NCBI GenBank assembly: GCA_009691505.1
Contig: SICJ01000002.1
Location: 1 to 42,070, forward strand
Direction: 5' to 3'
From: Candidatus Parcubacteria bacterium
GTDB taxonomy: Bacteria; Patescibacteriota; Minisyncoccia; Phycocordibacterales; CALRHW01
Length of the DNA: 42,070 nucleotides
Shown here: one piece after another, positions 5,897 to 8,666 of the stretch
Numbering within the stretch: the first letter of the stretch is position 1
Layout: every line of letters begins with the position of its first letter
Made by a program: the position numbers and the translations under genes
Notes under the pieces: model-generated
Database searches by the model: none
The model's input: only the letters and a program-made list of their open reading frames with translations
Told to the model about the DNA's origin: nothing

Positions 5897-7420
5897 TTAA
5901 TTATCTCGCAAAATTTTTACTTTCGCACCGATACTACATAGTCTTTTTATGATATCTTCGTAGCCACGATTTATACTATATATGTTGCGAAGTATTGATT
6001 TGCCACTTGCCCCCAGCATTCCTATGAGAATAATAGCGCCAGGACGTAGAGCGGGCGGACAAATAACCTCCGCTGATTTCAATTTTGTCGGCCCAGTAAT
6101 ATATAGTCGGTGTGGATCTACGAGATTTGTATTTGCTCCGAGTTTGTCTATGTCCTTCATGTAAATTGCGCGCTTTTCATAAGCCCAATCGTGGATGAAA
6201 GTTGTGCCTGTCGCCTGTGTTGCAATGATTGCAAAAAAAGGAAGATTGTCCATGTTGAGTCCTGGGTAGGGTCGGCACTCTATTTTTTCTTCAAGGGCGG
6301 TGAGTTTGGATGGAAAAGTTGTGATGTCTACAAGGTCGGTGTATTCATTTAATGCTTTGTATTTTTCGCTTCTTTTATATTTGAACCCCATTTTTTCTAG
6401 TTTAAGTAATTCAATTTCCAAAAAATCTATTGGACAACGTTTGATGATGATAGAAGAATTTGTGACGATGGCTGCCGCAAGAAAAAACATAGATTCAATA
6501 GGATCTTCCATAAGATAATATGTGACAGGTGTATTTATATTTTCTACTCCATAAATAGTGATATTTGTAGTACCTATACCTTCTACCTTTACCCCACATT
6601 TTTCTAAAAATAGACAAACTTCTTGTCCCATATAATTTGCTGATGCAAATTTAATAACGGTCTTGCCTGGGATAAGCGCCGCCGCCATTATTGCATTTTC
6701 TGTCACGGTGTCTCCAGATTCATATAGCACTATTTCCGCAGGTCTTAGTTTTGATGACGATATTTCATAGTTATCTTTGTTTGTTTTTATATTTACACCA
6801 AGTTTTTCTAACGCGAAAAAATGAGGACGCACAGTGCGTGAACCCAGGTTGCATCCACCTGGTTGAGGAATCTTAAAATTTTTTAGGTTGTGGATAAGCG
6901 GTCCGATAAGCATAATAATACTTCGTGTTTTTCCCGCCGCAGCGCCGTCTATATTTTTTATTGCAAAAGTTTTTGGAGGTTTTATTTCTACGTCGTTGCC
7001 GTGCCACTTTACATTTACGCCGATACTTTCAAACACTTCAATCATTCTATACACCTCCTCTATTTTCGGGACGTTTTTTATTGTCGTCGTGTTGGTATTG
7101 AGCAGGGAAGAACAGAGTATTCCCATCGCTCCGTTTTTAGAAGTTTTAGTAACGATTTCTCCTGAAAGTTTTCTACCGCCCTCTATTTCAATATTTAACG
7201 CGCCAGTTGAAAGTGTGACGATGTCGCGATTGAGCGCGTCACTGATTTTTGAAATCATTTCTGTGGTCAGGTTTTGCTCACCTTTTTCAATACGCGCCAC
7301 AGCGCTTTGCGTTGTGCCGAGTTTTTTTGCAAACTCTGCTTGTGTAATTCCTCGTTCTTCGCGAAGCGTCTGCGCCAGTTTTCCTATGTGTGCAAATTTT
7401 TTGTTGGCATTTTTGGGCAT
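5897..7420 (-). CDS. murA: XRE-family HTH domain fused to UDP-N-acetylglucosamine 1-carboxyvinyltransferase (MurA)
   Basis: Residues about 10-66 (LREERGITQAEFAKKLGTTQSAVARIEKGEQNLT) form a classic Cro/C1 HTH. The rest aligns with MurA, including the catalytic-Cys loop PQPGGCNLGSRTVRPH. Confidence 0.88.
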   Translation of the reverse strand: MPKNANKKFAHIGKLAQTLREERGITQAEFAKKLGTTQSAVARIEKGEQNLTTEMISKISDALNRDIVTLSTGALNIEIEGGRKLSGEIVTKTSKNGAMGILCSSLLNTNTTTIKNVPKIEEVYRMIEVFESIGVNVKWHGNDVEIKPPKTFAIKNIDGAAAGKTRSIIMLIGPLIHNLKNFKIPQPGGCNLGSRTVRPHFFALEKLGVNIKTNKDNYEISSSKLRPAEIVLYESGDTVTENAIMAAALIPGKTVIKFASANYMGQEVCLFLEKCGVKVEGIGTTNITIYGVENINTPVTYYLMEDPIESMFFLAAAIVTNSSIIIKRCPIDFLEIELLKLEKMGFKYKRSEKYKALNEYTDLVDITTFPSKLTALEEKIECRPYPGLNMDNLPFFAIIATQATGTTFIHDWAYEKRAIYMKDIDKLGANTNLVDPHRLYITGPTKLKSAEVICPPALRPGAIILIGMLGASGKSILRNIYSINRGYEDIIKRLCSIGAKVKILRDN

Positions 7421-7446: not shown

Positions 7447-7455
7447 ATTATAACA
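7447..7455 (-). promoter_or_regulatory. Extended -10 (TGtTATAAT on the minus strand) for HTH-murA
   Basis: The minus strand reads TGtTATAAT followed by a 26-nt A-rich leader with no SD. A possible -35 (TTGATT) lies inside the left arm of the 7469-7601 palindrome. Confidence 0.45.
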
Positions 7456-7459
7456 TATA

Positions 7460-7468
7460 TGCTATAAT
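7460..7468 (+). promoter_or_regulatory. Extended -10 (TGcTATAAT) pointing into the palindromic element
   Basis: A consensus extended -10. The predicted transcription start, near 7475, falls a few nt inside the left arm. Confidence 0.45.
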
Positions 7469-7601
7469 AAATCAAAACATTAATAAAAAGCCTGTGCTTT
7501 CAGAGCACGCGTAAAAATCTGCTGATTTTTCTGCTCCGCTCGGCGCCGACGCGCCTGCGCGAGTCTCTTCAAGCACAGGCTTTTTATTAATGTTTTGATT
7601 T
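7469..7601. repeat. Palindromic element A: perfect 31-bp inverted repeat around a 71-nt core with an AT hairpin and a GC hairpin
   Basis: 7469-7499 is the exact reverse complement of 7571-7601. Inner stems are AAAAATC/GATTTTT (7513-7530) and CGC-tc-GGCGC...GCGCC-t-GCG (7537-7559). Confidence 0.9.
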
Positions 7602-7652
7602 CTTTAAACATTTGTCAATCTTCCCAAACTCCCTTATGATATGCTTATCTTT

Positions 7653-8666
7653 ATGTCATTTTTCTCAAAAAAACTCGGTATTGATTTGGGAACCACAAGC
7701 ACCCTTGTGTATGTGCCTGGAAAGGGAATTGTCCTAAACGAGCCTTCTGTCGTTGCTATTTCTGAAGAAGACAACAGAATCCTCGCTATTGGTCTTGAAG
7801 CAAAAAATATGATCGGTCGCACACCTGAGAGCATTATTGCTTATCGTCCGATGAAAGACGGAGTCATTGCAGATTATCGTGTGACAGAAGCAATGCTTCG
7901 TTATTATATAAACAAAGCGCTCGGCAAGTGGAATTTATCAAAGCCAGAAGTGCTGGTGTCTGTGCCCGCAGGAGTCACATCCACAGAACGTCGTGCGGTC
8001 GTGGAGGCCGCTATTCGTGCAGGTGCAAAAAATGCTTATGTTGTAAAAGAACCGATTCTTGCAGCGATTGGTGCAGGGATTCCTATCCAAGAAGCGATGG
8101 GACACATGGTAGTAGATATTGGCGGAGGTACGACAGACGTCGCTGTTATTTCTCTTGGAGGAATTGTCGCAGCGACTTCTGTAAAATGTGCAGGTAATAA
8201 AATTGATTATGCGATTACTGATTACATTAAAAAACAATTCAATCTAGGTATAGGCGACAAAACCGCTGAAGATATAAAAATAAAAGTGGGCTCTGCTATT
8301 CCACTTGATGAAGAGCTTGCGGTGACGATAAAAGGACGAGATTTTGTGACAGGTCTTCCTCGTTCAATTGAAATTAAAACCAACGAAATAGTAAAAGCTA
8401 TCAACAAAGAACTTCGCGAAATCGTAAAAGCAATTAAAGATGTATTTCAAGATACTCCACCAGAGCTTGCGTCAGATATTATAGATAATGGAATTATTAT
8501 GACAGGTGGTTCATCACAGCTTCGTAACCTTCCAGATCTTGTTTATCGTCGCACAGGTGTAAAAGCCGTCCTTGCAGAAGACGCATTGTATTGTGTAGTG
8601 AAAGGGACAGGAATTGCCCTAGAGCATCTAGATGTATACAAAAAGAGTATTATTGCTAAGAGGTAG
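7653..8666 (+). CDS. mreB: Rod shape-determining protein MreB (paralog 1)
   Basis: Actin-fold motifs GIDLGT, VVDIGGGTTD and MTGGSS. I placed the start at the second ATG (MSFFSKKLGIDLGT); the ORF opens at 7641. Confidence 0.9.
   Translation: MSFFSKKLGIDLGTTSTLVYVPGKGIVLNEPSVVAISEEDNRILAIGLEAKNMIGRTPESIIAYRPMKDGVIADYRVTEAMLRYYINKALGKWNLSKPEVLVSVPAGVTSTERRAVVEAAIRAGAKNAYVVKEPILAAIGAGIPIQEAMGHMVVDIGGGTTDVAVISLGGIVAATSVKCAGNKIDYAITDYIKKQFNLGIGDKTAEDIKIKVGSAIPLDEELAVTIKGRDFVTGLPRSIEIKTNEIVKAINKELREIVKAIKDVFQDTPPELASDIIDNGIIMTGGSSQLRNLPDLVYRRTGVKAVLAEDALYCVVKGTGIALEHLDVYKKSIIAKR

What the first reader, a model, noticed from the sequence alone, without database searches (positions are those of the whole stretch)
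5897..7420. XRE-type helix-turn-helix domain fused in frame to MurA
The first 70 or so residues form a textbook Cro/C1 HTH (GITQAEFAKKLGTTQSAVARIEKGEQN). They are followed without interruption by a full MurA with the catalytic Cys loop intact (GGCNLGSR).

MurA catalyses the committed step of peptidoglycan synthesis and is normally a stand-alone enzyme. A DNA-binding domain on it suggests either direct transcriptional feedback or nucleoid tethering; both are inference. The gene's own promoter overlaps the 31-bp palindrome arm at 7469-7499.
Basis: partly seen in the sequence, partly recalled or inferred. Interest (0 to 1): 0.58.

Follow-up and report, generated by a model that had tools for sequence, protein, structure and literature searches.

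The report
MurA enzyme fused to own repressor
The only MurA (first committed enzyme of cell-wall synthesis) of this tiny Patescibacteria genome carries a phage-repressor-type DNA-binding domain, and a matching 18-bp palindrome lies on its own promoter wherever that domain is present, so the enzyme very probably shuts off its own gene.

Summary
ORF 5897-7420(-) encodes 507 aa: Pfam HTH_3 (aa 19-68, E 8e-16), a poorly conserved linker of about 14 aa with low model confidence, and a full-length MurA with all catalytic residues. It is the sole MurA in a 466-kb genome.

It is not an assembly error. All 120 best database homologues and 79 of the 80 best species genomes carry the same fusion, including cultured Streptomyces and Knoellia.

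New here is an 18-bp palindrome (TATATCA-N4-TGATATA type) at 7449-7466. It lies in the spacer and -10 of the predicted murA promoter, and its core pattern occurs only once in the whole genome. A site with 3 or fewer mismatches lies upstream of murA in 16/21 and 54/77 fused loci, but in 1/20 unfused orthologues and 0/13 canonical MurAs. The recognition helix is nearly invariant.

Best reading: a bifunctional enzyme and autorepressor of the trigger-enzyme type, like BirA, PutA and NadR. DNA binding and ligand control are inferred, not shown.

The scan reached the same reading earlier on other genomes; I found the operator before reading those notes. I found no paper describing it.

The parts
5897..7420 (-). 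HTH-murA coding sequence (507 aa plus stop). It is the sole EPSP-synthase-fold gene of the genome.
7217..7387 (-). XRE/Cro-C1-type HTH domain (aa 12-68), modelled as four helices at aa 4-22, 27-34, 38-45 and 53-62
   Evidence: Pfam HTH_3; the only HTH_3 above cut-off in the genome; AF2 model pLDDT 81-88
7286..7315 (-). Recognition helix (aa 36-45). T36, Q38, S39 and R43 are nearly invariant, E45 is invariant, and Q49/N50 just after it are nearly invariant.
   Evidence: alignment A1 of 53 fused proteins; mean pairwise identity of aa 36-50 is 75%
7193..7234 (-). Linker (aa 63-76), poorly conserved and with low model confidence
   Evidence: pLDDT below 50 at aa 69-72; 41% mean identity against 60% for the HTH and 64% for MurA
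5900..7192 (-). MurA catalytic domain (aa 77-507). Cys190 is at 6851-6853. K95, N96, R166, R195, D306, R417 and R459 are kept.
   Evidence: end-to-end alignment to solved MurAs, best 5ujs at E 2e-55; invariant columns in A1
7449..7466 (.). Candidate operator, an 18-bp near-palindrome. It has 2 mismatches to the family consensus and 1 to the G/C variant of its closest relatives.
   Evidence: the only hit with 3 or fewer mismatches in the window, 0.02 expected; best PWM hit in the genome; the only match to the core pattern in 466 kb; conserved upstream of fused genes
7447..7475 (-). Predicted sigma-70 promoter of HTH-murA: -35 at 7470-7475, a 17-nt spacer, TG at 7454-7455, and -10 at 7447-7452. 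The operator covers most of the spacer and the first 4 nt of the -10.
   Evidence: 10 of 12 consensus matches, TG present; same architecture in relatives
7469..7601 (.). Palindromic repeat element with 31-bp perfect arms, inserted between murA and mreB. It is not part of the regulatory pair, but it supplies the -35 hexamer.
   Evidence: at least 13 further copies of its core in the genome

Best explanation
HTH-MurA is a bifunctional protein. Its C-terminal 430 residues are an active UDP-GlcNAc enolpyruvyl transferase and the cell's only one. Its N-terminal XRE-type HTH binds, presumably as a dimer, the 18-bp palindrome at 7449-7466. Because that site covers the spacer and part of the -10 of the gene's own promoter, a bound protein would block RNA polymerase. 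MurA would then hold its own level constant by negative autoregulation.

What is shown:
- the domain architecture;
- the intact catalytic residues;
- the conservation of the recognition helix;
- the co-occurrence of HTH and palindrome;
- the position of the palindrome in the predicted promoter.

What is inferred:
- actual DNA binding;
- dimerisation;
- the sign of the regulation (repression);
- any modulation by UDP-GlcNAc, PEP or UDP-MurNAc through the open/closed movement of MurA.
For: Architecture and copy number:
- HTH_3 plus a full MurA in one frame.
- It is the sole MurA of the genome, and murB is present.
- The catalytic Cys loop and the Lys/Arg/Asp residues align with solved MurAs and are invariant in 53 fused homologues.

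The HTH is under constraint:
- Helix-3 residues at the positions corresponding, by my alignment from memory, to the base-contacting ones of 434 repressor (Q38, S39, R43) are nearly invariant.
- The HTH is almost as conserved as the enzyme, 60% against 64% mean identity.

The palindrome tracks the HTH:
- A site with 3 or fewer mismatches lies within 300 nt upstream in 16/21 fused loci, 1/20 unfused orthologues and 0/13 canonical MurAs (Fisher 1.4e-8).
- Phylogenetically independent fused/unfused pairs go the same way 5-7 times and the other way 0 times (sign test p about 0.03).
- A second, independent set of loci gives 54/77 at 3 or fewer mismatches and 64/77 at 4 or fewer. The adjacent coding DNA never reaches 4 or fewer, and the one unfused gene in that set has 7 mismatches.
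- The two fused loci with a changed recognition helix (L019, L021) lack the canonical site.

The site is specific and well placed:
- In five (near-)complete genomes one site lies directly upstream of murA. Only 0-2 more occur elsewhere, like the reversed-pattern control.
- In this genome the core pattern occurs once.
- The right half-site plus 2 nt forms an extended -10 in most loci, and in the window.
- AT-rich palindromes lie at the same place in about 70% GC Streptomyces, Knoellia and Brachybacterium.
Against: - There is no experiment of any kind; binding, stoichiometry and repression are inferred.
- The right half of the palindrome is itself an extended -10 (TGnTATAAT-like), so part of its conservation is promoter conservation.
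- About a quarter of fused loci have only a poor match (5 or more mismatches in 5/21 and 13/77).
- The HTH has been lost many times, even within a genus: at least 8 changes on well-supported branches. Its function is therefore dispensable.
- MurA is usually described as a monomer (from memory), so the source of dimerisation is unknown.
- The association between residue 37 and operator base 5 does not survive phylogenetic pairing.
- The window's own site is imperfect, with 2 mismatches.
Confidence: 0.8

Rival explanations
1. The HTH is a protein-protein module like the cytoplasmic HTH of RodZ. On this reading it tethers MurA to MreB filaments, whose orphan paralogue lies divergently next door, rather than binding DNA.
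For: - mreB (7641-8666) is the divergent neighbour.
- The only faint HTH_25 hit in the genome is this domain, at E 0.059.
Against: - HTH_25 is far below its cut-off, whereas HTH_3 is well above.
- Helix 4 has none of the aromatic residues that RodZ uses to contact MreB (from memory of the T. maritima complex).
- mreB is next to murA in none of the 20 other fused loci. It is next to murA in the syntenic relative whose MurA lacks the HTH.
- This reading does not explain a palindrome that comes and goes with the HTH.
Confidence: 0.04
2. The HTH binds the palindrome, but the outcome is not simple self-repression. It might act as an activator, or as a regulator of a wider cell-wall regulon for which the murA site is only one target.
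For: - A second good PWM hit (19.1 bits) lies in the thyA/glyA divergent promoter region of this genome.
- Other genomes hold 0-2 extra sites.
- Earlier notes of the scan report murB as a second target in other lineages.
Against: - Extra sites are no more frequent than in the reversed-pattern control.
- They lie next to unrelated genes (thrS, a class II aaRS, CAP-domain, pirin, glyA).
- murB in this genome has no site.
- murB lies 1.4-2.8 kb away in only 5/21 fused loci.
- A site that covers the -10 and spacer is the classical position of a repressor.
Confidence: 0.1
3. The palindrome is a promoter feature or the site of another factor. On this reading the HTH is a relic, or binds DNA unspecifically (nucleoid tethering).
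For: - The right half-site coincides with an extended -10.
- The HTH is dispensable in many lineages.
Against: - Unfused sister genes lack the palindrome although they still need a promoter.
- The left half-site has no promoter role.
- The recognition helix is the best-conserved part of the HTH, at 75%, which a relic or an unspecific binder would not require.
- In this genome it is the only XRE-type HTH above cut-off, so no other protein of that family is available.
Confidence: 0.05
4. Assembly or frameshift artefact that joins two genes.
For: None was found. Reads could not be inspected.
Against: The same in-frame fusion is present in hundreds of independent assemblies, including isolate genomes.
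Confidence: 0.01

Closest known systems
Enzyme-repressor fusions ('trigger enzymes' with their own DNA-binding domain): E. coli BirA/bioO, PutA, NadR
   Same: [quoted passage not shown] The expected outcome is that enzyme level or ligand state feeds back on transcription.
   Different: - The enzyme is different (MurA, peptidoglycan).
- The DNA-binding fold is different: an XRE/Cro-C1 HTH, against a winged helix in BirA and a ribbon-helix-helix in PutA.
- No ligand dependence is known here.
- Nothing has been tested experimentally.
- The comparison rests on my knowledge of those systems, not on a tool result.
Autoregulated XRE/Cro-C1 repressors with dyad operators (434 and P22 repressors, HipB, PezA, SinR, C.AhdI controller proteins)
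   Same: - The best sequence matches of the HTH among solved structures are PezA, HipB, 434 repressor and C.BclI.
- The GTTQ...E.G signature is the same.
- The operator is a palindrome of about 18 bp that overlaps the regulator's own promoter.
   Different: Those proteins are small stand-alone regulators or antitoxins with a dimerisation domain. Here the C-terminal partner is a 430-aa essential enzyme, and no toxin gene is adjacent.
Canonical MurA (E. coli, Enterobacter cloacae, Campylobacter 5ujs) and Streptomyces MurA2 (SCO5998 / sven5810)
   Same: - Full-length alignment with the same catalytic residues.
- A fused orthologue exists in Streptomyces luteireticuli.
   Different: - Canonical MurAs have no DNA-binding domain.
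- This clade is only 32-39% identical to the canonical MurA of other Patescibacteria, and it has a roughly 12-aa insertion.
- Papers on MurA2 treat it as a plain second MurA under BldM-WhiI, SigB or DmdR1 control and do not mention an HTH (PMC4125116, PMC8346170, PMC12161575).
- I could not verify that SCO5998 itself is fused.
XRE-HTH fused to shikimate kinase (NCBIfam PRK08154, 'anaerobic benzoate catabolism transcriptional regulator')
   Same: An XRE-type HTH is fused N-terminally to a small-molecule enzyme. There is a weak HTH-only hit, E 4.4e-5.
   Different: The enzyme domain is unrelated, and the hit is far below the cut-off (22.8 against 204 bits).

Membership tests
MurA (UDP-N-acetylglucosamine 1-carboxyvinyltransferase) | Profile match above the curated cut-off | tested here: met
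   NF006873 scores 325.5 bits against a cut-off of 297. The stricter equivalog model TIGR01072 scores 322 bits, below its cut-off of 392.7, so this is a divergent clade.
MurA (UDP-N-acetylglucosamine 1-carboxyvinyltransferase) | Catalytic loop Cys (E. coli C115), plus K22, R120, D305 and R397 equivalents | tested here: met
   C190, K95, R195, D306 and R459 align with solved MurA 5ujs. They are invariant in 53 homologues. E. coli numbering is from memory.
MurA (UDP-N-acetylglucosamine 1-carboxyvinyltransferase) | It acts as the cell's MurA: sole copy, with the rest of the pathway present | tested here: met
   It is the only EPSP-synthase-fold gene in a 93.6% complete genome, and murB is present. 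Enzymatic activity is not testable here.
XRE / Cro-C1 HTH DNA-binding domain | HTH_3 profile match and a helical-bundle fold | tested here: met
   HTH_3 scores 58.3 bits against a cut-off of 23. The AF2 model has four helices at pLDDT 81-88.
XRE / Cro-C1 HTH DNA-binding domain | Sequence-specific binding to a dyad-symmetric operator | not testable with these tools
   The evidence is indirect only. A conserved 18-bp palindrome co-occurs with the HTH.
Trigger enzymes with a fused DNA-binding domain (BirA, PutA, NadR type) | Active enzyme and DNA-binding domain in one polypeptide | tested here: met
   (activity inferred from intact residues)
Trigger enzymes with a fused DNA-binding domain (BirA, PutA, NadR type) | Operator on a promoter of its own gene or pathway | tested here: met
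   The site 7449-7466 lies inside the predicted promoter 7447-7475.
Trigger enzymes with a fused DNA-binding domain (BirA, PutA, NadR type) | DNA binding switched by the enzyme's substrate or product state | not testable with these tools
   There are no data. The linker is modelled with low confidence, which neither supports nor excludes coupling.
RodZ-type MreB-binding HTH | HTH_25 profile match | tested here: not met
   E 0.059 and 12.6 bits, against a cut-off of 24.6. No HTH_25 hit appears among the Pfam hits at E 0.01 or better.
RodZ-type MreB-binding HTH | Transmembrane segment after the HTH | tested here: not met
   The HTH is followed directly by the soluble MurA domain.

The most novel reading that the evidence does not exclude
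HTH-MurA is a true ligand-gated trigger enzyme. The large open-to-closed movement of MurA on binding UDP-GlcNAc/PEP, or its tight complex with the pathway product UDP-MurNAc, would change dimerisation or operator affinity. One polypeptide would then sense precursor supply and set transcription of the committed step of wall synthesis. In this 466-kb genome it would be the only XRE-type regulator. The same device would operate from ultra-small Patescibacteria to Streptomyces, possibly exchanged between Saccharimonadia epibionts and their actinobacterial hosts.
Probability: 0.3. Interest if true: 0.8.

Novelty: new member of a known kind. Interest (0 to 1): 0.6.

Why it matters
MurA is the committed step of peptidoglycan synthesis and the target of fosfomycin. 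The controls I know of from memory are post-translational or use separate regulators: ClpCP/ReoM proteolysis in Firmicutes and feedback inhibition by UDP-MurNAc. A MurA that carries its own repressor domain and operator would be a new and very compact control circuit for cell-wall synthesis.

It would also be one of the few inferable transcription circuits in genome-reduced Patescibacteria, which cannot yet be manipulated. The same fusion and an equivalent palindrome occur in cultured Actinomycetota (Streptomyces luteireticuli, Knoellia subterranea). The hypothesis can therefore be tested directly with standard genetics and biochemistry.

Databases annotate these proteins simply as MurA, so the regulatory half is currently invisible to users.

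Tried and rejected
1. The 31-bp palindrome (7469-7499 / 7571-7601) as operator: rejected. It is absent from the other fused loci.

2. A RodZ-like link to MreB: mreB adjacency is not conserved and there is no HTH_25 signature.

3. A split form: unfused genomes hold no close stand-alone copy of this HTH. The best is 35% identity at E 4.5e-7, against 45-60% identity at E 1e-17 to 1e-22 in fusions. Some unfused genes keep linker-like N-termini (L026, L029). The unfused state in the derived clade therefore reflects loss by 5' truncation.

4. A wider regulon: extra sites are as rare as in the control and show no common theme. murB has no site here.

5. Protein-DNA covariation (residue 37 T/S with operator base 5 G/T, MI 0.73): not significant once phylogeny is taken into account. 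I do not use it as evidence.

6. Rfam: nothing in the murA-mreB spacer.

7. Literature: seven full-text searches found no description of an HTH on MurA. The library lacks most subscription journals.

It was re-run by reference.

Full report
**1. Observation**

- Pfam gives HTH_3 at aa 19-68 (E 7.6e-16, 58 bits, cut-off 23) and EPSP_synthase at aa 80-494 (E 9e-49).
- NCBIfam gives the MurA subfamily model NF006873 above its cut-off (325.5 against 297 bits, aa 77-503). The stricter equivalog TIGR01072 falls short (322 against 392.7 bits).
- The MurA part aligns end to end with solved MurAs (best 5ujs, E 2e-55). The Cys loop and the Lys, Arg and Asp residues of the active site are in place.
- It is the only EPSP-synthase-fold gene in the 466-kb, 93.6% complete genome. 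murB is present elsewhere.

**2. Not an artefact**

- All 120 best homologues (69-96% identity; NCBI, JGI, ENA and Logan assemblies) carry both PF00275 and PF01381.
- In an even sample of 401 genomes of the phylum, a distinct MurA clade (44% identity or more to the query) appears in 68 genomes. Of these, 44 are fused and 24 are not. The other genomes have a canonical MurA of 32-39% identity without an HTH.
- A scan of one genome per prokaryotic species found at least 591 species with this clade. Of the 80 best, 79 are fused. By record title they include:
  - Paceibacterota/Parcubacteria lineages;
  - many Saccharimonadales;
  - single Gracilibacteria, Uhrbacteria and Doudnabacteria records;
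  - the Actinomycetota Streptomyces luteireticuli JCM 4788, Knoellia subterranea KCTC 19937 and a Brachybacterium MAG.
- Pfam confirms both domains in the Streptomyces and Knoellia proteins.
- The ESM Atlas lists 30 clusters of 50 or more members with this architecture.

**3. Evolution of the fusion**

- On a tree of the MurA domain, the basal rows of the clade are unfused. The fusion appears inside a derived group, where fused and unfused genes are intermingled.
- At least 8 changes are forced by well-supported branches, some within one genus.
- The window's nearest sampled relative with the same synteny (priA-murA / mreB-holB, G337) is unfused.
- Unfused genomes hold no close stand-alone copy of this HTH.
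- Some unfused genes keep linker-like N-termini.
- I read this as one gain followed by repeated loss through 5' truncation.

**4. The HTH looks functional**

- In 53 fused proteins, R20, E45 and G47 are invariant. T26, Q27, T36, Q38, S39, R43, Q49 and N50 are nearly so.
- Aligned by eye with 434 repressor (from memory), Q38, S39 and R43 fall on its base-contacting positions.
- Mean pairwise identity is 60% for the HTH, 64% for MurA, 41% for the linker and 75% for helix 3 plus the following turn.
- The AF2 model (mean pLDDT 90.6) has a four-helix HTH (pLDDT 81-88), a low-confidence linker (below 50 at aa 69-72) and a confident MurA domain with a floppy Cys loop.
- Among solved structures, the HTH matches a designed DNA-binding protein, PezA, HipB, 434 repressor and controller proteins.

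**5. The operator**

Reading the 160 nt upstream of the 21 fused genes showed a recurring 18-bp palindrome of the form TATATCA-N4-TGATATA.

Counts of sites with 3 or fewer mismatches within 300 nt upstream:
- 16/21 fused loci;
- 1/20 unfused orthologues, the exception being the sister of a fused gene;
- 0/13 canonical MurAs (Fisher 1.4e-8).

Because kin are not independent, I also used phylogenetically independent fused/unfused pairs. The site goes with the HTH in 5-7 pairs and against it in none (sign test p about 0.03).

A second, independent set from the species scan gives 54/77 at 3 or fewer mismatches and 64/77 at 4 or fewer. The roughly 2 kb of adjacent coding DNA never does better than 5 mismatches, and the single unfused gene has 7.

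The two fused loci whose recognition helix has changed (L019, L021) lack the canonical site.

Even the about 70% GC actinobacterial genes have an AT-rich dyad 30-50 nt before the start codon.

**6. Specificity**

- In the window the site is 7449-7466. It is the only hit with 3 or fewer mismatches, against 0.02 expected.
- It is the best PWM hit in the whole genome.
- It is the only match to the core pattern in 466 kb.
- In five (near-)complete fused genomes, one site always lies directly upstream of murA. Only 0-2 lie elsewhere, no more than for the reversed control pattern.
- The extra sites lie beside unrelated genes.
- murB has no site in this genome. It lies within 3 kb of murA in only 5/21 fused loci. 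The murB link reported in earlier notes was therefore not reproduced in my sample.

**7. Promoter geometry**

- The scan predicts a -35 at 7470-7475, a 17-nt spacer with TG, and a -10 at 7447-7452 (10/12 matches).
- The operator covers most of the spacer and the first four bases of the -10.
- Across 81 sites, the right half-site plus two bases gives 5/6 or better to the -10 consensus in 58. A -35 of 4/6 or better at 16-18 nt is found in 40%, against 13% at random positions.
- Part of the palindrome's conservation is thus promoter conservation. The mirrored left half is not, and it disappears with the HTH.

**8.

- The 31-bp arms (7469-7499 / 7571-7601; extended to 7459-7611) belong to a dispersed element.
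- It is not the operator, though its arm supplies the -35 hexamer.
- Rfam finds nothing there.

**9. Mechanism**

Best reading (0.8): an enzyme-autorepressor that binds its own promoter.

Rivals:
- A RodZ-like MreB tether. HTH_25 is not met, mreB adjacency is not conserved, and it gives no account of the palindrome.
- A wider or activating regulon.
- A relic or unspecific binder.
- An artefact.

Whether substrate or product binding gates the DNA-binding activity is open.

**10. Novelty**

- Seven full-text searches found no description of an HTH on MurA.
- Papers on Streptomyces murA2 treat it as a plain second MurA.
- The scan itself has reached the same reading on at least eight other windows. 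I read those notes after finding the operator.
- As a kind, it joins BirA, PutA and NadR, so it is a new member of a known kind.

Noticed in passing
G000:C8:8309-8326 (L056:2501-2518): This is the second-best operator-like site of the genome (19.1 bits, 3 mismatches). It lies in the 26-bp gap between divergent thyA and glyA, overlapping what looks like an extended -10 of a leaderless glyA. It was not seen next to glyA in the five other genomes scanned, so it may be chance.
   Followed up: partly
L137, L141, L143 (Streptomyces luteireticuli, Brachybacterium MAG, Knoellia subterranea): The actinobacterial HTH-MurA genes form one clade nested among Saccharimonadales sequences in a FastTree (98 and 99 local support). 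That fits gene exchange between Saccharimonadia epibionts and actinobacterial hosts. The sampling of Actinomycetota is thin and their composition is biased, so the direction is open.
   Followed up: partly
L024:5376-5393 (G275, unfused murA): An unfused murA, sister to a fused gene of the same genus, still has a 3-mismatch palindrome 38-55 nt upstream. It may be an operator relic left after a clean deletion of the HTH-coding part.
   Followed up: no
window 7469-7601: This 133-bp palindromic element has at least 13 more copies of its core in the 466-kb genome. Here it sits between murA and mreB, which are only 27 bp apart in the syntenic relative G337, and it provides the -35 of the murA promoter.
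   Followed up: partly
phylum sample: Two MurA types (the HTH clade and the canonical type, 32-39% identical) are distributed patchily, even within the window's own order. This suggests replacement of one type by the other through transfer.
   Followed up: no
L060:2492-2527 (G383): A palindrome of about 36 bp that embeds two perfect operator half-sites lies upstream of thrS in a genome with a fused MurA. It could be a hairpin or a second target.
   Followed up: no
L031:371-1048 (G261): A 225-aa protein with an XRE-type HTH (E 2e-7 to the query HTH) is encoded directly upstream of an unfused murA, on the same strand. It was a single case in my sample.
   Followed up: no
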